From assembly GCA_018812585.1 (NCBI GenBank), contig JAHJDJ010000325.1, positions 1 to 42,524 on the forward strand: DNA of 42,524 bases, read 5' to 3'. Below the pieces are notes generated by a model. That model was not told where the DNA came from. It did not search any database and saw nothing but the letters and a program-made list of their open reading frames with translations. The stretch comes from a bacterium (GTDB taxonomy: Bacteria; Electryoneota; B3-LCP). This document shows, one piece after another, positions 9,430 through 33,938 of the stretch. Position numbers and translations under genes: made by a program. Each line of letters begins with the position of its first letter. Positions within the stretch are counted from its first letter, which is position 1.

Positions 9430-9478
9430 AAAGTCAAAATGCAAAATTTCCAAGTAAAAAGTCAAAATTGAAAAGTGG
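9430..9478. repeat. Degenerate 7-mer tandem array
   Basis: AAAGTCA AAATGCA AAATTTC CAAGTAA AAAGTCA AAATTGA AAAGTGG. Confidence 0.7.
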
Positions 9479-10030: not shown

Positions 10031-10128
10031 AGATGAACAAACCAGCCAAGCCACCGACAAAGCCGGATTGAGGATACCATAGGCACAGGAAGGGATGATC
10101 AGACGCCTGCGGCTCTGGTACAAACAAA

Positions 10129-10156
10129 AAGCTAAGAGCTAACTGCTAACAGCTAA
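10129..10156. repeat. 7-mer tandem array overlapping the LD-carboxypeptidase stop
   Basis: AAGCTAA GAGCTAA CTGCTAA CAGCTAA. Confidence 0.75.
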
Positions 10157-11076
10157 ATGCTATAGAGTTCTTCCAGCAGATCCAGGCCGTTTTCAGAGAG
10201 TTCGGCTTCTACACCGATGGGTAAGGTGACGCGATCAATGTGGTGTCCGTAGGGGAAGCCGATGCCGATAGGGATGGGGTGATCGGAGGTTAATTCTAAG
10301 AGAATGTCATCCAGTTTCAGGTGCTGGCCGCGGTTGGTTTCGGGCCAACAATCGACCATGCTGCCGACGACCAAACCTGAGATTTTCTGCAGTATCCCAG
10401 CATTTTTCAGATGCGTCAGCGTGCGGTCGATGCGGTACGGTTTTTCGGCGACGTCTTCGATGACGAGGATCGCGCCGGTGAGATCGGGCATAAAAGGGGT
10501 GCCTAAGAGAGTCACTATCATGCTTAAGCAGCCGGGAAACAACCTGCCGCGGGCGGAACCGGGGCGCAGCATTCTGAAGTTGTCTGACTTTATGGTTGCT
10601 GCGGATGATTCCAGGCCCAACGCAGCGCGGAAAGAGCGCAGGGAATCGGGGGGCAAGCCATCGCCTATTTCTCCGACCGTGGGGCCGCTTAAGGTGATCA
10701 GCCCAGTCTTAGCGAAAATCGCCCAATTCAGGGCGGTGACGTCGCTGAAACCGACGAACGGTTTGGGATTGCTGCCGATGGTATCGAAGGGGATCATTGA
10801 CAGGAGACGGCCAGCGCCATAACCACCGCGTGAACAGAAGACGGCGTCGACGGATTTATCTTCAAAGGCGGAGATCAGGTCGCTCAGGCGCTGTTGGTCG
10901 TTGGCTGCGAGATAGGCCGTTTTCCCGGAAGCGTGTTCGCCTAAAACCGGATTAAATCCCCACTCTTCTAATTGCCGCAGACCCTTCTTCAGGCGCTGGG
11001 GATCAATAGGACCGGCGGGTGAGATGACGGCGATTTTTGCGTCAGGCGAGAGCGCTGGAGGTTTGATGATCCTCAT
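10153..11076 (-). CDS. ldcA: LD-carboxypeptidase, peptidase S66 family
   Basis: IAVISPAG, CSRGGYG, FVGFSDVT (Ser), IEDVAE (Glu), PYGH (His). Confidence 0.92.
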   Translation of the reverse strand: MRIIKPPALSPDAKIAVISPAGPIDPQRLKKGLRQLEEWGFNPVLGEHASGKTAYLAANDQQRLSDLISAFEDKSVDAVFCSRGGYGAGRLLSMIPFDTIGSNPKPFVGFSDVTALNWAIFAKTGLITLSGPTVGEIGDGLPPDSLRSFRAALGLESSAATIKSDNFRMLRPGSARGRLFPGCLSMIVTLLGTPFMPDLTGAILVIEDVAEKPYRIDRTLTHLKNAGILQKISGLVVGSMVDCWPETNRGQHLKLDDILLELTSDHPIPIGIGFPYGHHIDRVTLPIGVEAELSENGLDLLEELYSI

Positions 11077-29600: not shown

Positions 29601-30941
29601 ATGCCGCGGCGCTTATTTATCTTTTTATTCTGCTTCTTTCCAATTTTGGTTCAAGCAGTAGAACCGGATTGGAATAAGATCGAAGAGGAACTGATTGACC
29701 TGTTGCAGAAGCTGATTCAGGTCGATACGCAGAATCCTCCCGGCAATGAATTAGCTGCGTGCCGCGTTTTAGATAAATTCTTCCGCAAGAATGGCATTTC
29801 CAGCAAGATCTATCGGGTTGACGATCAGCGGGCAAACCTTTTAGCTCGTTTGAAGGGAGACGGTTCGCAGAAAGCGATTCTGCTGGCGGCTCACACTGAC
29901 GTGGTTCCTGCCAACGGAGATAAATGGTCGGTTGATCCCTTCTCAGGGGAAGTGCTCGATGGTTATATTTATGGGCGCGGCGCCATCGACGATAAGGGGA
30001 TGCTGGCAGTTCATGCGATGACGCTTGTCTTGCTGAAGCGACAAAATGTCCCCTTGCGGCGGGATGTCATTTTTTTAGCGACGGCAGGCGAGGAATCGGG
30101 CGGCAGTCCGGGAATTAAGTGGATGCTGGAGCGGCATCGTCCCAAGTTGGAAGCAGCCTTTGCATTAAATGAGGGCGGCCGCATCATCTACAGAAATGGC
30201 AAACCGCTCTACATCGCACTGCAAACGGAAGAAAAACAGGCATATAACATAAATTTGACTGCCACGGGCACGACCGGGCATTCGTCGATTCCCAGATTGG
30301 ATAATGCGATTGTCAGCATGGCGAAGGCTCTGGAACGGTTAGAGCGGCGTCCGATGCAGCAATCGCTGGACGCCGTGACGACAGCGTTTTTCCAGGAGAT
30401 CAATCGGGTTGATACGGCAGTGGTTTGGACCGACAATCAGGTGCTAACCACCGATCCATTATATCTGGCGATTCTGTCCAATACGATCGCTCCGACGATT
30501 ATCTCGGGCGGTATTAAGTCGAACGTGCATCCTCCATCAGTCGAATTGAATTTGAACTGCAGGTTGCTGCCCTCTCAGGATGTGGATGAGTTCGTTGACA
30601 GTCTACGCACCTGGATCTCTCCCGGACCTTATTCATTTGATTATCGCAAGCGGAATCCTGCCCCAGCGCCGTCACCACAGGACGGTCTTGGTTATATTCT
30701 GATTGAGCAGGTTTGCAATGAATTATATCCGGGTACGCCGGTTTTGCCTTATCTTTCACCGGGAATGTCGGATGGGACGAGCTTACGCCATGAAGGCATT
30801 CCGACCTATGGGCTGCTCCCTTTCCCGCTGGATGAAGAAGAGGTCTGGAGACAGCACGGCGTCGATGAGAGATTGTCGCTGGAATCGTTGATGATGGGGA
30901 TGAAGCTGGTACACAGGTTAGTGAAGTTAGCAGGGATTTAG
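29601..30941 (+). CDS. Secreted M20/M25/M40 metallopeptidase
   Basis: Signal peptide, AHTDVV, GRGAIDDKG, GEE, NEGG, HGVDE. Confidence 0.93.
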   Translation: MPRRLFIFLFCFFPILVQAVEPDWNKIEEELIDLLQKLIQVDTQNPPGNELAACRVLDKFFRKNGISSKIYRVDDQRANLLARLKGDGSQKAILLAAHTDVVPANGDKWSVDPFSGEVLDGYIYGRGAIDDKGMLAVHAMTLVLLKRQNVPLRRDVIFLATAGEESGGSPGIKWMLERHRPKLEAAFALNEGGRIIYRNGKPLYIALQTEEKQAYNINLTATGTTGHSSIPRLDNAIVSMAKALERLERRPMQQSLDAVTTAFFQEINRVDTAVVWTDNQVLTTDPLYLAILSNTIAPTIISGGIKSNVHPPSVELNLNCRLLPSQDVDEFVDSLRTWISPGPYSFDYRKRNPAPAPSPQDGLGYILIEQVCNELYPGTPVLPYLSPGMSDGTSLRHEGIPTYGLLPFPLDEEEVWRQHGVDERLSLESLMMGMKLVHRLVKLAGI

Positions 30942-30954
30942 TCAGGGATATCAT

Positions 30955-31950
30955 ATGTTGACTTTCAAGCAATATGTCGCAGAGATAACGGATGTCATTC
31001 ATCGGACCAGCGGATTTGACCCTGATCTGCAGGCCAAAATTCTGGCAACGCTTGTCTTTCTTCTGTCGCTCTCTATCCTGCGTTACGTTATTCTCCGCAT
31101 CGTCTGGAGACGTACCGAAGATGTTCACGTCCGCTATCTCTGGCGTAAGAGTATAAGTTATATTGTCACGGCGCTGGGATTACTGTTCATCGTCCGTCTG
31201 TGGTTTTCAGGATTTAAGGATCTGGGCACATTTTTAGGGTTAGTTTCTGCTGGACTGGCAATTGCGTTAAAAGACCCTTTAACCGATATCGCAGGCTGGA
31301 TGTTTATTCTCTGGCGTAAGCCGTTCGGTATCGGTGACCGCATTCAGATCGGCGCGCACGCGGGCGACGTTATCGATATTCGTCTTTTCCAGTTCACTTT
31401 ATTGGAAATTGGCAACTGGGTGGATGCAGATCAAAGTACCGGTCGGGTGATTCACATCCCAAATGAAAAGGTCTTCATGGAAGCGCTGGCCAACTATAGC
31501 AAAGGCTTTCAGTTCATCTGGAATGAGATCGCGGTACTGGTAACTTTTGAGAGTGATTGGAAGAAAGCGAAAGAAATTCTGGCGCGGATTGTTGCTCGGC
31601 ATGCGGAGCATCTGACTCAAGAGGCACAGGAGAAGGTCAAAAAGGCGAGCCAGAAATTCATGATATTTTACACTCAATTGACACCGATTGTGTACACTGA
31701 CGTTAAAGATAGCGGAGTCAACTTGACCATCAGGTATCTCACTGATCCGAGAAAGCGACGCGGATCCACGCAAAATATCTGGGAAGATATCCTGACAGAA
31801 TTTGCTGAGCATAAAGATATTGATTTCGCTTATCCAACGACCCGGTTTTACAATAATTTGAACGAGGGAAAAGAGGCTGGTAACTCAGGTCTACCGAGTC
31901 AACAGAGGGTAGATCACTTGGATAATCGTGAAGCAAAAAACTCGACATAG
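30955..31950 (+). CDS. MscS family mechanosensitive channel
   Basis: AGLAIALKD, KPFGIGDRIQIG, IPN. Confidence 0.92.
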   Translation: MLTFKQYVAEITDVIHRTSGFDPDLQAKILATLVFLLSLSILRYVILRIVWRRTEDVHVRYLWRKSISYIVTALGLLFIVRLWFSGFKDLGTFLGLVSAGLAIALKDPLTDIAGWMFILWRKPFGIGDRIQIGAHAGDVIDIRLFQFTLLEIGNWVDADQSTGRVIHIPNEKVFMEALANYSKGFQFIWNEIAVLVTFESDWKKAKEILARIVARHAEHLTQEAQEKVKKASQKFMIFYTQLTPIVYTDVKDSGVNLTIRYLTDPRKRRGSTQNIWEDILTEFAEHKDIDFAYPTTRFYNNLNEGKEAGNSGLPSQQRVDHLDNREAKNST

Positions 31951-31959
31951 TTGCCGGGT

Positions 31960-31977
31960 TTCGCGGAGAGGGCGGGA
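31960..31977. repeat. 18-bp direct repeat of the tRNA-Ser(GCT) 3' end
   Basis: TTCGCGGAGAGGGCGGGA, identical to 32411-32428. Confidence 0.92.
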
Positions 31978-32410
31978 AGGTAGTTTGAGGTTTGAAGTAG
32001 ATAAAGCGCTACATATATAATGCAGAATTACAAAACGTTATCCGTCTGGCACAAAAGTCACCGTTTGGTGTTAGAGACATACGAATTGACGGCTAAGTAC
32101 CCAAAGACTGAACAATATGGATTGACCAGCCAAATGAGGCGGGCAGCGGTTTCTGCACCTGCCAATATCGCAGAAGGGTGCAGCCGCGACTCTGCTGCGG
32201 ATTTCGTCAATTTTTTGAGGATCGCGGTTGGATCAATCAATGAATTAGAATATTATTTCATACTTTCCGGTGAACTTGGCCTTCTAACTGATGACTCTGC
32301 TGTGCTACTTGGGGAGAAGGCATTAGAAATAAAGAAAATGCTCATCAACCTTATCAAAAAGGTGAGAGCATCACAGTGACTATAAACCACAAACTACAAA
32401 CTATAAACTA
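31978..32410. mobile_element. Putative 433-bp mini-element: four-helix-bundle gene with inverted heptamer-repeat termini
   Basis: Lies exactly between the 18-bp direct repeats; left end TAGTTTG AGGTTTG, right end CTATAAA CCACAAA CTACAAA CTATAAA CTA. Confidence 0.7.
32020..32379 (+). CDS. Four helix bundle protein (23S rRNA IVP-like family)
   Basis: YKTLSVWHKS, YPKTEQYGLTSQMRRAAVSAPANIAEG, FLRIAVGSINEL. Confidence 0.95.
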   Translation: MQNYKTLSVWHKSHRLVLETYELTAKYPKTEQYGLTSQMRRAAVSAPANIAEGCSRDSAADFVNFLRIAVGSINELEYYFILSGELGLLTDDSAVLLGEKALEIKKMLINLIKKVRASQ

Positions 32411-32414
32411 TTCG

Positions 32415-32504
32415 CGGAGAGGGCGGGATTCGAACCCGCGGTGAGGTTTTGGCCCCACACTCGCTTAGCAGGCGAGCGCCTTCAGCCAGCTCGGCCACCT
32501 CTCC
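32415..32504 (-). tRNA. tRNA-Ser(GCT), CCA not encoded
   Basis: GGAGAGG/CCTCTCC acceptor stem, anticodon loop CT-GCT-AA, long variable arm, GGTTCGAATCC, G discriminator. Confidence 0.97.
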
Positions 32505-32510
32505 AATTTG

Positions 32511-32596
32511 CGGAGGATGAGGGACTCGAACCCCCATGGCCCCAAAGGGCCGGCGGCTTTCAAGGCCGCTGCCTTACCAATTAGGACTAATCCTCC
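32511..32596 (-). tRNA. tRNA-Ser(TGA), CCA not encoded
   Basis: GGAGGAT/ATCCTCC acceptor stem, anticodon loop CT-TGA-AA, long variable arm, GGTTCGAGTCC. Confidence 0.96.
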
Positions 32597-32665
32597 CAAG
32601 AACCCTGAATGGCTTATAGGGGTATAATACCCAGGAACTCCGAGTCAAGGTAACAGTAAACAATA

Positions 32666-32694
32666 AATATAAATAAAGAACTTAGCAAAGTCAA
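32666..32694 (-). promoter_or_regulatory. tRNA operon promoter
   Basis: TTGACT-17 nt-TATATT. Confidence 0.7.
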
Positions 32695-32717
32695 GCATTT
32701 TTGTAAAACCTCTTCGG

Positions 32718-33890
32718 ATGAAAATAATTTACCGCTATCTGGCGATGGAGTTTATCCCGCCTTTCTTTTACGGTTTCTTTCTGATCACCGTTATCATTTT
32801 GATGAACCTGGTCGTGCAGATGTTGGGGAGAATTGCGGGAAAAGGATTAGATCCATACGTAGTCACTGAATATTTCTTTCTGAACTTAGCCTGGATCGTG
32901 GCGTTGGCCGTACCGATGGCGGTGCTGGTGGCGACGCTTTCAGCATTTGGACGGCTTTCTGCTGAGAATGAATTTACGGCCATGAAGGCCGCGGGTATGA
33001 GCCTGTGGCAATTAATGATGCCTTTTATTTTAATGGCTGGTCTGCTCTGTTACCTGCTGATTGAGTTCAACAATCGTGTCCTGCCTGATTTTAATCATCG
33101 CACTCGTGTGCTTTCCGGGGATATCAGCCGAAAGCGCCCCACGTTAGCTTTGGAAGCGGGAACGTTTATTTTTGACATTCCGAAATACGTGTTATGGGCG
33201 CAGCAGATCGATCAGAAAGGTTCGGAGCTGAAATCACTGGTCATTTATGATCGCAGTGAACCGCGTCATCCCACTGTGGTATCAGCAGAGCATGGGAAAT
33301 TGACGTTTGTGCGCGCAGACGAAGCGTTCCACATGCAGCTTTTCGACGGGGAGATTCACCGCCAGGATACGGGTGATCCGGGTTATTATCAGCGCACTAA
33401 ATTTGAGCGCTCGCTGGTGCGTATTCCTGCTCCTAATATGGTCTTCGAAAGGCATGACAGCGAATATCGATCAGACCGCGAATTGTCGGCTTTAGAAATG
33501 TGGCAGCAGGTGCAGTTGATGAAGCAGGATGATCCGGTTAAGAACAAACGCAAGATCAACGCCTACATGGTCGAAGTCCACAAAAAGTACTCTATTCCGG
33601 TTGCCTGTCTGGTGTTCGTCCTGATTGGCGCTCCATTAGGCGTCAGGGTTCACCGGGGCGGTCTGGGTGTCGCGGCTGGTTTGAGCGTCCTCTTCTTCCT
33701 CGTCTATTGGGCGTTTCTGATTGGCGGTGAAGATTTAGCTGACCGCAGTATCATCACACCTGCAATGGCGATGTGGGCTCCGAATGTGCTTATGGGAGTG
33801 CTGGGGTTCTTCCTGGTGCGCAGTACCATCCGCGAAGCGAAAATCCTGGATTTCGGCGTCATTTTGCGGAAATTTAAGAAAAATCAGTGA
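32718..33890 (+). CDS. lptF: LptF/LptG family LPS export permease
   Basis: IIYRY, AVPMAVL, GRLSAENEFTAMKAAG, EVHKKYSIP, WAPN. Confidence 0.9.
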   Translation: MKIIYRYLAMEFIPPFFYGFFLITVIILMNLVVQMLGRIAGKGLDPYVVTEYFFLNLAWIVALAVPMAVLVATLSAFGRLSAENEFTAMKAAGMSLWQLMMPFILMAGLLCYLLIEFNNRVLPDFNHRTRVLSGDISRKRPTLALEAGTFIFDIPKYVLWAQQIDQKGSELKSLVIYDRSEPRHPTVVSAEHGKLTFVRADEAFHMQLFDGEIHRQDTGDPGYYQRTKFERSLVRIPAPNMVFERHDSEYRSDRELSALEMWQQVQLMKQDDPVKNKRKINAYMVEVHKKYSIPVACLVFVLIGAPLGVRVHRGGLGVAAGLSVLFFLVYWAFLIGGEDLADRSIITPAMAMWAPNVLMGVLGFFLVRSTIREAKILDFGVILRKFKKNQ

Positions 33891-33938
33891 CCTGTAACAC
33901 AAATTCTCCTGAAATATCATTTAAATTATAGACGTGCC

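What the first reader, a model, noticed from the sequence alone, without database searches (positions are those of the whole stretch)
31960..32428. Integrase-less mini-element: four-helix-bundle gene, inverted heptamer-array ends, 18-bp duplication of the tRNA-Ser 3' end
Seen: TTCGCGGAGAGGGCGGGA occurs at 31960-31977 and 32411-32428, and the second copy is the 3' end of tRNA-Ser(GCT) plus 4 trailer nt. The 433 bp between them hold only a four-helix-bundle gene, convergent on the tRNA. It is bracketed by 7-mer arrays that abut the duplication and are mutually inverted: 31980-31997 GTAGTTTGAGGTTTGAAG matches the reverse complement of 32380-32397 at 15/18. Known: this family (23S rRNA IVP-like, structurally related to DGR Avd) has no established function and was first found inside rRNA intervening sequences; tRNA 3' duplications usually mark integrase att sites. 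Inference: this is a complete tiny mobile unit with a long target duplication and no recognised transposase or integrase. Its ends could pair into a stem, as an IVS does, and the protein may bind the heptamer arrays. This is the best candidate for an undescribed system here.
Basis: partly seen in the sequence, partly recalled or inferred. Interest (0 to 1): 0.82.

Follow-up and report, generated by a model that had tools for sequence, protein, structure and literature searches.

The report
Hairpin-armed gene cassette at tRNA-Ser end
A small gene of unknown function, bracketed by mirror-image runs of a 7-base repeat, has been inserted right at the end of a serine tRNA gene and has left an 18-base copy of the tRNA's tail on its far side; this is a rare insertion footprint for a widespread but barely described type of gene cassette.

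Summary
The 18-mer occurs at 31960-31977 and 32411-32428. The second copy is the tail of tRNA-Ser(GCT). The 433 bp between them hold one PF05635 four-helix-bundle gene flanked by inverted 7-mer arrays that abut the repeats.

The gene-plus-arms unit belongs to a large class. All 5 PF05635 genes of this genome have such arms, as do 80 of 90 cassettes surveyed across phyla. This scan has noted the class on other DNA more than 50 times. I found no paper that describes it.

A long flanking duplication is not a property of the class. It occurs in 1 of 116 cassette rows, namely this one. Its geometry (intact tRNA, then insert, then a displaced fragment running from the last T-loop base to 4 nt past the tRNA end) is what integration of a small circle at a tRNA gene leaves behind. 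So the likeliest cause is a recombinase acting in trans, not transposition by the cassette itself.

No empty allele could be found, because there is no same-genus genome and the metagenome homologues are at most 65% identical. Family relatives lack both mscS and the cassette at this site, but three of them carry other cassettes next to tRNA-Ser genes.

The parts
30955..31950 (+). mscS-type channel gene upstream, same strand as the cassette gene. It lies outside the repeat-bounded unit.
   Evidence: ORF. PF00924, E 6e-14. No orthologue at this site in the 8 family genomes. Best homologues elsewhere are 55-65% identical.
31933..31956 (-). Weak terminator-like hairpin plus T run, 3 nt after the displaced tRNA tail in tRNA sense. 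Possibly the tRNA operon's original terminator.
   Evidence: Consensus scan. The fold is weak: -9.7 kcal/mol, z -1.13, and 30 of 200 shuffles fold as well.
31960..31977 (.). Left copy of the 18-bp direct repeat: a displaced copy of the tRNA-Ser 3' end plus trailer.
31980..32000 (+). Left arm: about three 7-nt units, inverted relative to the right arm.
   Evidence: It pairs with the right arm in the MFE fold.
32020..32379 (+). Four-helix-bundle gene (PF05635, 23S rRNA IVS protein / Avd-like), 119 aa.
   Evidence: Sequence matches to solved structures 2gsc (E 2.4e-19) and 2rld (E 9e-9), each with five chains.
32379..32410 (+). Right arm: period-7 array, 4.7 copies.
32411..32428 (.). Right copy of the 18-bp direct repeat: the last T-loop base through the acceptor 3' strand and discriminator, plus the trailer, of the intact tRNA.
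32414..32504 (-). tRNA-Ser(GCT), intact.
   Evidence: ARAGORN. Rfam tRNA 59.6 bits.
32510..32596 (-). tRNA-Ser(TGA), upstream partner in the tRNA pair that is conserved across the family.

Best explanation
Window 31980-32410 is one copy of a widespread IVS-type cassette: a PF05635 four-helix-bundle gene enclosed by two inverted arrays of a 7-nt repeat. It has no recombinase of its own.

This copy lies between tRNA-Ser(GCT) and that tRNA's former 3' flank. The 18-bp direct repeat is best read as a regenerated target plus a displaced fragment. That is the signature of Campbell-type integration of a small circular DNA at a tRNA gene, with the crossover between the last T-loop base and 4 nt past the tRNA end. 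The enzyme would be a tyrosine integrase (or another recombinase) encoded elsewhere.

Shown:
- the anatomy of the cassette;
- its membership of the class;
- that the duplication is unique to this copy;
- that the insertion is derived relative to family relatives.

Inferred:
- the circular intermediate and the enzyme;
- that the arms pair, in RNA or single-stranded DNA, so the cassette loops out as 23S rRNA intervening sequences do;
- that an 18-bp repeat at the base of a hairpin would favour precise loss by replication slippage.
For: Class membership:
- All 5 PF05635 genes of the genome have inverted period-7 arms, each with a different unit.
- 80 of 90 cassettes, drawn from 80 GTDB loci plus this family, score above the best of 20 shuffles.
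- The MFE fold pairs the arms (-131.2 kcal/mol, z -3.04, 0 of 100 shuffles as good).

The duplication is real and special:
- The 18/18 identity abuts both arms.
- Only 1 of 116 cassette rows has such a repeat.

Geometry:
- The intact tRNA is on one side.
- The displaced tail on the other side is followed after 3 nt by a terminator-like hairpin and T run. Relatives G001 and G007 have a terminator hairpin directly after this tRNA.
- The Islander paper describes a regenerated target and displaced fragment as the marks of tDNA integration (PMC4383910; I saw only the start of its abstract in the listing).

Candidate enzymes and origin:
- Nine PF00589 matches lie elsewhere in the genome.
- The state is derived: the peptidase-to-tRNA gap is 36-179 nt in G007, G001, G002 and G005, against 1472 nt here.
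- A foreign origin is plausible. The protein's closest homologues (up to 58% identity) are in Bacteroidota, Planctomycetota and other phyla, while family paralogues reach at most 51%.

Recurrence in the family:
- In G004, an 82-aa GIY-YIG gene sits between tRNA-Ser(GGA) and a copy of its 3' half.
Against: - No empty allele and no circle junction was seen. Contigs from three studies (X1, X3, X4) all show the filled left junction, and no joint skips the cassette. Contigs drop rare variants, so this is weak either way.
- No integrase lies on this contig or next to the other tRNA-Ser copy, so no enzyme is linked to the site.
- A 433-bp integrative element is far smaller than known islands.
- The genome and its relatives hold other partial tRNA copies beside tRNA genes that are not explained by this model. 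The left 18-mer could therefore pre-date the cassette.
- The terminator-like hairpin is weak (z -1.13).
- For the looping-out idea, arm mismatches show no excess of G:U on the sense strand: 114 against 137 of the antisense kind, p 0.16, across 107 cassettes.
- Most arm complementarity comes from the shared repeat unit rather than from mirrored order: 0.81 identity in register against 0.74 after permuting units. Selection on a sense-RNA stem is therefore not demonstrated.
Confidence: 0.45

Rival explanations
1. The left 18-mer is an older partial tRNA copy, and the cassette later landed in the short spacer between it and the tRNA. Such copies are common beside tRNA genes in this bacterial family. 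On this view the repeat says nothing about how the cassette moves.
For: - 3 of 48 tRNA/tmRNA genes of this genome have a copy of their 3' end downstream.
- At the orthologous locus in G005, a partial tRNA-Ser copy lies 19 nt behind tRNA-Ser(gct). It is followed by the same trailer letters (CGAA, then A) as the window's left copy, and then by a gutted repeat hairpin.
- With spacers of 10-50 nt, an inserted cassette would necessarily abut both copies.
- In relatives the cassette arms start about 6 nt after a tRNA-Ser 3' end, so this is a favoured landing spot.
Against: - The other partial copies run from the anticodon or variable arm to the 3' end and carry a 22-23 nt insertion in the T loop. 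The window's copy is only 18 nt, is 18/18 identical, and ends exactly at the T loop.
- The 5' part of such a fragment would have had to be deleted to within 2 nt of the arm.
Confidence: 0.25
2. The cassette transposes by itself or with an unknown host factor and makes a long staggered cut, so the 18 bp are a true target-site duplication.
For: - The repeat abuts both inverted arms with 0-2 nt between.
- There is no recombinase gene inside.
- Earlier notes of this scan report short duplications around some cassettes (e1-2377959, 8 bp; e1-4496101, CATT). I did not check these.
Against: - 115 of 116 cassette rows have no flanking repeat of 14 nt or more outside the arms. The three other long hits (21, 16 and 13 nt) lie inside the arrays.
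- The five copies in this genome are at most 49% identical in protein to the window's copy and have unrelated arms, so there is no sign of recent transposition.
- Three of the five sit at positions conserved across genera.
Confidence: 0.1
3. The repeat pair is the attL/attR of a once larger integrase-bearing island. That island has been deleted down to the cassette, which was merely cargo or a later settler.
For: - The tRNA 3' duplication is the classical island signature (PMC4383910, start of abstract only).
- The interval between the peptidase gene and the tRNA is variable in the family: csp genes, repeat arrays and mscS all occur there.
Against: - Both arms abut the repeats within 0-2 nt, so a deletion would have had to end exactly at the arm.
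- None of the 8 family genomes, nor G012 of a neighbouring family, has an integrase island at this tRNA.
Confidence: 0.1

Closest known systems
ORF-bearing intervening sequences (IVS) of 23S rRNA, e.g. the 428-nt Coxiella burnetii IVS encoding S23p (PMC4990558, abstract read)
   Same: The size is the same (about 430 nt). The single ORF is of the same family (PF05635). The ends can pair into a stem. The abstract infers horizontal acquisition followed by vertical maintenance. RNase III, which excises the Coxiella IVS, is encoded in this genome.
   Different: This copy is not in an rRNA gene. It lies between a protein gene and a tRNA gene, antisense to the tRNA. Its arms are tandem 7-nt arrays. 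It is flanked by an 18-bp target duplication. Excision from RNA has not been tested, and the arm mismatches show no bias toward a sense-RNA stem.
Genomic islands integrated in tRNA/tmRNA genes by tyrosine integrases (Islander, PMC4383910, start of abstract in listing), and their integrase-less derivatives mobilised in trans (CIME-type elements, recalled, not checked)
   Same: An intact regenerated tRNA plus a displaced 3' fragment as a direct repeat bounding the insert. The repeat starts in the T loop and runs past the 3' end.
   Different: The insert is 433 bp with no integrase gene. Its ends are inverted repeat arrays that abut the repeats. No cognate integrase has been identified.
Avd, the accessory protein of diversity-generating retroelements (PMC10053308, passages read)
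   Same: A homologous four-helix-bundle fold family. That paper relates PF05635 (2GSC) to BPP-1 Avd (4DWL), and the window protein matches 2gsc at E 2.4e-19.
   Different: There is no DGR here. The only reverse transcriptase in the assembly is a group II intron on contig C70.
STRR-type heptanucleotide tandem repeats of cyanobacteria (recalled; a Nostoc preprint on 'heptamer repeats', 10.1101/2022.06.06.494920, seen only as a listing)
   Same: Intergenic tandem 7-mers in large excess. This genome has 132 period-7 arrays of at least 3.5 copies, against 31 of period 6 and 23 of period 8.
   Different: Here two arrays in inverted orientation enclose a gene. Most arrays of the genome are solo.
MITEs / IS-derived cassettes with terminal inverted repeats and target-site duplications (recalled)
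   Same: Small, non-autonomous, with inverted ends and, in this copy, a flanking direct repeat.
   Different: There are no near-identical copies in the genome. The arms differ between copies. No duplication of fixed length exists across the class.

Membership tests
PF05635 / 23S rRNA IVS protein (four-helix-bundle, Avd-like) | Pfam model matched above the gathering score over its full length | tested here: met
   122.5 bits against a cut-off of 33.8; model positions 1-105 of 106.
PF05635 / 23S rRNA IVS protein (four-helix-bundle, Avd-like) | Sequence relationship to solved members of the fold | tested here: met
   2gsc E 2.4e-19 and 2rld E 9.1e-9, five chains per entry. No structure was predicted here.
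Heptamer-armed four-helix-bundle cassette (class noted by this scan, not found in print) | PF05635 gene enclosed by two inverted tandem arrays of a 7-9 nt unit | tested here: met
   All 5 of 5 copies in this genome and 80 of 90 surveyed cassettes show the arrangement.
23S rRNA intervening sequence | Inserted in a helix of an rRNA gene | tested here: not met
   Rfam finds only two tRNAs in 31800-32700. The flanks are mscS and tRNA-Ser.
23S rRNA intervening sequence | Ends pair into a stem that RNase III cuts | tested here: inconclusive
   The stem is predicted and the rnc gene is present. However, there is no sense-strand G:U excess and no RNA data.
tDNA-integrated genomic island | Intact tRNA plus a displaced 3' fragment as direct repeats at the two ends | tested here: met
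tDNA-integrated genomic island | Integrase gene inside the island | tested here: not met
   The only family-assignable ORF inside is PF05635. The 9 PF00589 matches lie on other contigs.
tDNA-integrated genomic island | Empty site in close relatives | tested here: inconclusive
   The insert is absent at the orthologous site in the family genomes. No same-genus genome exists, and no skipping joint was seen in contigs.
Transposon / MITE | Target-site duplication of characteristic length at every copy | tested here: not met
   1 of 116 rows has a long flanking repeat. Duplications shorter than 10 bp were not tested.
DGR accessory gene (avd) | Adjacent DGR reverse transcriptase with template and variable repeats | tested here: not met
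   The assembly has a single RT, and it is a group II intron.

The most novel reading that the evidence does not exclude
The heptamer-armed four-helix-bundle cassette is itself a miniature integrative element. When excised as a circle, its two arms would come together around the 18-nt tRNA-tail sequence. That hairpin-presented site would be recombined with the T-loop/3' end of tRNA-Ser by a host or trans-acting recombinase, possibly recruited by the four-helix-bundle protein bound to the repeat arrays. This copy would then be the first caught with its insertion footprint. The clustering of cassettes about 6 nt behind tRNA-Ser 3' ends in four genera of this family would reflect the same targeting.
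Probability: 0.15. Interest if true: 0.8.

Novelty: new variant of a known kind. Interest (0 to 1): 0.58.

Why it matters
PF05635 proteins are among the commonest small proteins of unknown function in bacteria. The heptamer tandem repeats of bacterial intergenic regions are likewise unexplained. The cassette class ties the two together, but how cassettes arrive at a site is unknown. Almost all copies show no footprint.

This copy has a clean one: an 18-bp duplication of a tRNA tail that abuts both arms. That yields concrete, cheap tests. One is outward PCR or read mining for a 451-bp circle. Another is a search for a restored single 18-mer. A third is recombination assays with the nine integrases of this genome.

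The work also shows that, in one bacterial family, tRNA-Ser 3' flanks collect these cassettes, solo arrays, partial tRNA copies and a GIY-YIG gene.

Tried and rejected
Empty allele:
- An mscS protein search in 61 related genomes found no orthologue in the family; the best hits were about 55% identical in other families.
- Among 66 metagenome loci (at most 65% identical), none has a tRNA-Ser behind mscS.
- Contigs of four runs were laid on 30900-33900. No joint skips the cassette. Because these are contigs only, this is no evidence that empty alleles are absent.

Apparent flanking repeats in other cassettes:
- The 11-12 nt repeats in L066 and L131 turned out to lie inside the upstream coding sequence, so I treat them as chance.
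- The 21-nt (L113), 16-nt (L142) and 13-nt (L075, L249) hits are pieces of the arrays themselves.

Other ideas tested:
- Terminator after the left 18-mer: a pattern hit, but the fold is weak. I keep it only as a hint.
- A promoter-like site (-35 at 31992, -10 ending at 32021) overlaps the conserved start codon. I did not take it as the gene's promoter.
- An association of repeat arrays with tRNAs in this genome is rejected. Only 1 of 48 tRNAs, the one in the window, has an array within 60 nt, against 1.1% of random segments.
- DGR link: rejected.
- Integron-cassette reading: by eye, the arm units do not fit the attC core consensus as I recall it, and no integron integrase is nearby. This was not tested with a tool.
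- Reading the 18-mer as a retrovirus-like primer-binding site complementary to tRNA-Ser: any antisense tRNA tail has this property, and there is no RT other than the intron. I dropped it.

Literature:
- Two full-text searches found no paper linking this gene family with heptamer arrays. One used 'intervening sequence protein', 'four helix bundle', 'heptamer repeats' and PF05635. The other used 'S23 ribosomal', heptanucleotide, STRR and '23S rRNA-intervening sequence'.
- Supplementary files were not consulted.
- One search failed on a term that was too long and was re-sent.

Full report
OBSERVATION

The 18-mer stands at 31960-31977 and 32411-32428. The right copy overlaps the 3' end of tRNA-Ser(gct). 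ARAGORN places the tRNA at 32414-32504 minus. Rfam places it at 32415-32504 with 59.6 bits. In tRNA sense the repeat runs from the last base of the T loop through the T stem, acceptor strand and discriminator to 3-4 trailer bases.

Between the copies lies one ORF that can be assigned to a family. It spans 32020-32379, encodes 119 aa, and matches PF05635 at E 1.1e-35. It also matches the solved four-helix-bundle proteins 2gsc and 2rld.

The arms are 31980-31998 and 32379-32397, at 84% complementarity over 19 nt. The right arm is a period-7 array of 4.7 copies. The arms abut the repeats with 2 and 0 nt between. The MFE fold of 31955-32415 closes the cassette by pairing the arms (-131.2 kcal/mol, z -3.04).

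THE CASSETTE IS ONE OF A CLASS

The genome is 3.85 Mb in 383 contigs and has five PF05635 genes. All five are bracketed by inverted short-period arrays, and the unit differs from copy to copy.

I then surveyed 90 cassettes: the five own copies, one from relative G004, and 84 on the 80 loci that encode the closest homologues in GTDB species genomes. In 80 of them the inverted-repeat score exceeded the best of 20 shuffles. Period 7 dominated, with a few of period 8.

This scan has noted the same architecture more than 50 times in other genomes. I re-derived it here independently. Two literature searches found no paper that describes it. The nearest published thing is the ORF-bearing IVS of 23S rRNA (PMC4990558, abstract).

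THE DUPLICATION IS NOT A TRAIT OF THE CLASS

I compared 220 nt on either side of each gene. Only the window's cassette has a long direct repeat outside its arms. That is 1 of 90 rows and 0 of 26 further family cassettes. One locus was fetched twice, so these are 115 distinct cassettes.

The other long hits lie inside the arrays or inside coding sequence. The null distribution from 400 mismatched flank pairs peaks at 7-8 nt and reaches 13 at most. Short duplications under 10 bp were not tested.

CONTEXT IN RELATIVES

No genome of the same genus is held. The family has eight other genomes. In them the gene order is M20-type peptidase, then tRNA-Ser(gct), tRNA-Ser(tga), then lptF. The peptidase is 60-72% identical and LptF 69-80% identical to the window's proteins.

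The peptidase stop lies 36-179 nt from the tRNA in G007, G001, G002 and G005, against 1472 nt in the window. Both mscS and the cassette are therefore additions in this lineage. G001 and G007 have a plain terminator hairpin behind the tRNA.

The neighbourhood is a hot spot for repeat elements.
- G002 has a solo array of about nine 7-mers between the peptidase stop and the tRNA.
- G005 has a partial tRNA-Ser copy followed by a gutted repeat hairpin.
- G004 has a complete cassette filling the spacer between the two tRNA-Ser genes.
- G008 has a cassette between tRNA-Ser(cga) and tRNA-Ser(gga). It is followed by a partial tRNA copy and a decayed second cassette.
- G006 has a cassette directly upstream of tRNA-Ser(gga).

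I inspected 32 of the 53 family matches above the Pfam cut-off. Four adjoin a tRNA-Ser, and one lies about 118 nt from a tRNA-Arg. In these cases the arm starts about 6 nt after the tRNA's terminal CCGC.

Three of the window genome's five cassettes sit at intergenic positions that also hold a cassette in several other genera, yet with different arm units. Most copies are therefore long-term residents, not recent jumps.

WHERE THIS COPY CAME FROM

Its protein is closest, at up to 58% identity, to homologues in Bacteroidota, Planctomycetota, Acidobacteriota and Chloroflexota. Family paralogues are at most 51% identical. This fits horizontal acquisition but does not prove it.

WHAT THE 18-BP REPEAT MEANS

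The layout is an intact tRNA, the insert, then a displaced copy of the tRNA tail followed by the old flank. This is what Campbell-type integration at a tRNA gene leaves behind (PMC4383910; I saw only the start of its abstract in the listing). That integrase crossovers often lie in the T loop is my recollection and was not checked.

Three nt behind the displaced tail, in tRNA sense, there is a terminator-like hairpin with a T run. That is where relatives have their terminator. The hairpin is weak, however.

Nine tyrosine-recombinase matches exist elsewhere in the genome, none on this contig. I therefore rank a trans-catalysed site-specific event first, at 0.45.

The main rival, at 0.25, is that the left 18-mer is an older partial tRNA copy. 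Three of 48 tRNA genes here have such a copy, and G005 has one at this very locus with the same trailer letters. Those copies, however, are 3' halves with a 22-23 nt insertion in the T loop. They are not clean 18-mers.

A true target-site duplication made by the cassette (0.1) conflicts with the 115 copies that lack one. A deletion remnant of a larger island (0.1) needs a deletion that ends exactly at the arm.

HOW THE CASSETTE MAY WORK, AND A CAUTION

The IVS analogy predicts that the arms pair in the transcript and are cut by RNase III. An RNase III gene is present. The gene is co-directional with mscS and antisense to the tRNAs.

Two tests argue against simple selection on a sense-RNA stem.
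- Among arm mismatches in 107 cassettes, G:U-compatible ones on the sense strand number 114. Those compatible only on the antisense strand number 137 (p 0.16). A further 409 are compatible with neither strand.
- In-register complementarity is 0.81. Permuting the order of repeat units in one arm still gives 0.74. Only 24 of 103 cassettes beat 95% of permutations, and the observed register was chosen as the best one.

The arms are thus better described as the same repeat unit in mirror orientation than as a precisely co-varying stem. That description fits pairing in any register. It also fits DNA-level hairpins, or arrays of binding sites for a protein, possibly the encoded one.

There is no DGR. 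The only reverse transcriptase in the assembly is a group II intron.

LIMITS

- No empty allele or circle could be sought in raw reads. The one read-laying run returned contigs only.
- Contigs of three studies show the same filled left junction with no differences.
- Supplementary files of papers were not seen.

VERDICT

The unit is a member of a widespread, apparently unpublished cassette class. Its particular value is the insertion footprint at a tRNA tail.

Noticed in passing
G000 contig C364:2290-2370 and C312:13240-13310; also L037 (G005), L146 (G008), L147 (G007): Partial tRNA copies lie 10-50 nt behind tRNA-Ser(GGA), tRNA-Met and, in relatives, other tRNA-Ser genes. Each copies its neighbour from the anticodon or variable arm to the 3' end and carries a 22-23 nt insertion in the T loop. 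The insertion forms two small hairpins whose stems differ between copies by paired changes. None matches an Rfam family at E up to 0.1.
   Followed up: partly
L149 (G004:C30) 950-1385: An 82-aa GIY-YIG gene (PF01541, E 1.2e-12) sits between tRNA-Ser(GGA) and a copy of that tRNA's 3' part, which by eye matches the tRNA over roughly its last 45 nt. This is a second kind of single-gene insert bounded by a tRNA-tail duplication in the same bacterial family.
   Followed up: partly
whole genome G000: There is a strong excess of 7-nt tandem repeats: 132 arrays of at least 3.5 copies at period 7, against 31 at period 6, 23 at period 8 and 11 at period 9. Most are solo arrays, not paired around a gene. 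Several lie at contig ends.
   Followed up: partly
G000 C346:2296-2610, C346:6063-6377, C313:3827-4132 and loci L232-L257: Three intergenic positions hold a PF05635 cassette in five or six genera of the family: fabG-like/thiolase, a gene ending in DDLF followed by a dehydratase-like gene, and upstream of cinA. The arm repeat units differ from genus to genus at the same site.
   Followed up: partly
L146 (G008:C330) 700-1560: A serial arrangement: repeat array, tRNA-Ser(cga), complete cassette, tRNA-Ser(gga), partial tRNA copy, then another arm with what looks like a decayed four-helix-bundle gene start. The tRNAs sit between cassettes much as exons sit between introns.
   Followed up: no
window 32379-32412, runs X3, X4, X5: Contigs from three studies match only the right-arm array and continue on both sides with other sequence. 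The same 30 letters lie before position 32379 in all three, and different letters follow 32412. This suggests that near-identical arrays exist in other contexts in these habitats (table 7).
   Followed up: no
window 9452-9476 and 10127-10162: Two further period-7 arrays elsewhere in the window, with unrelated units.
   Followed up: no
G000 contig C70 (2533 bp): A group II intron with a 507-aa reverse-transcriptase ORF fills a whole short contig.
   Followed up: yes
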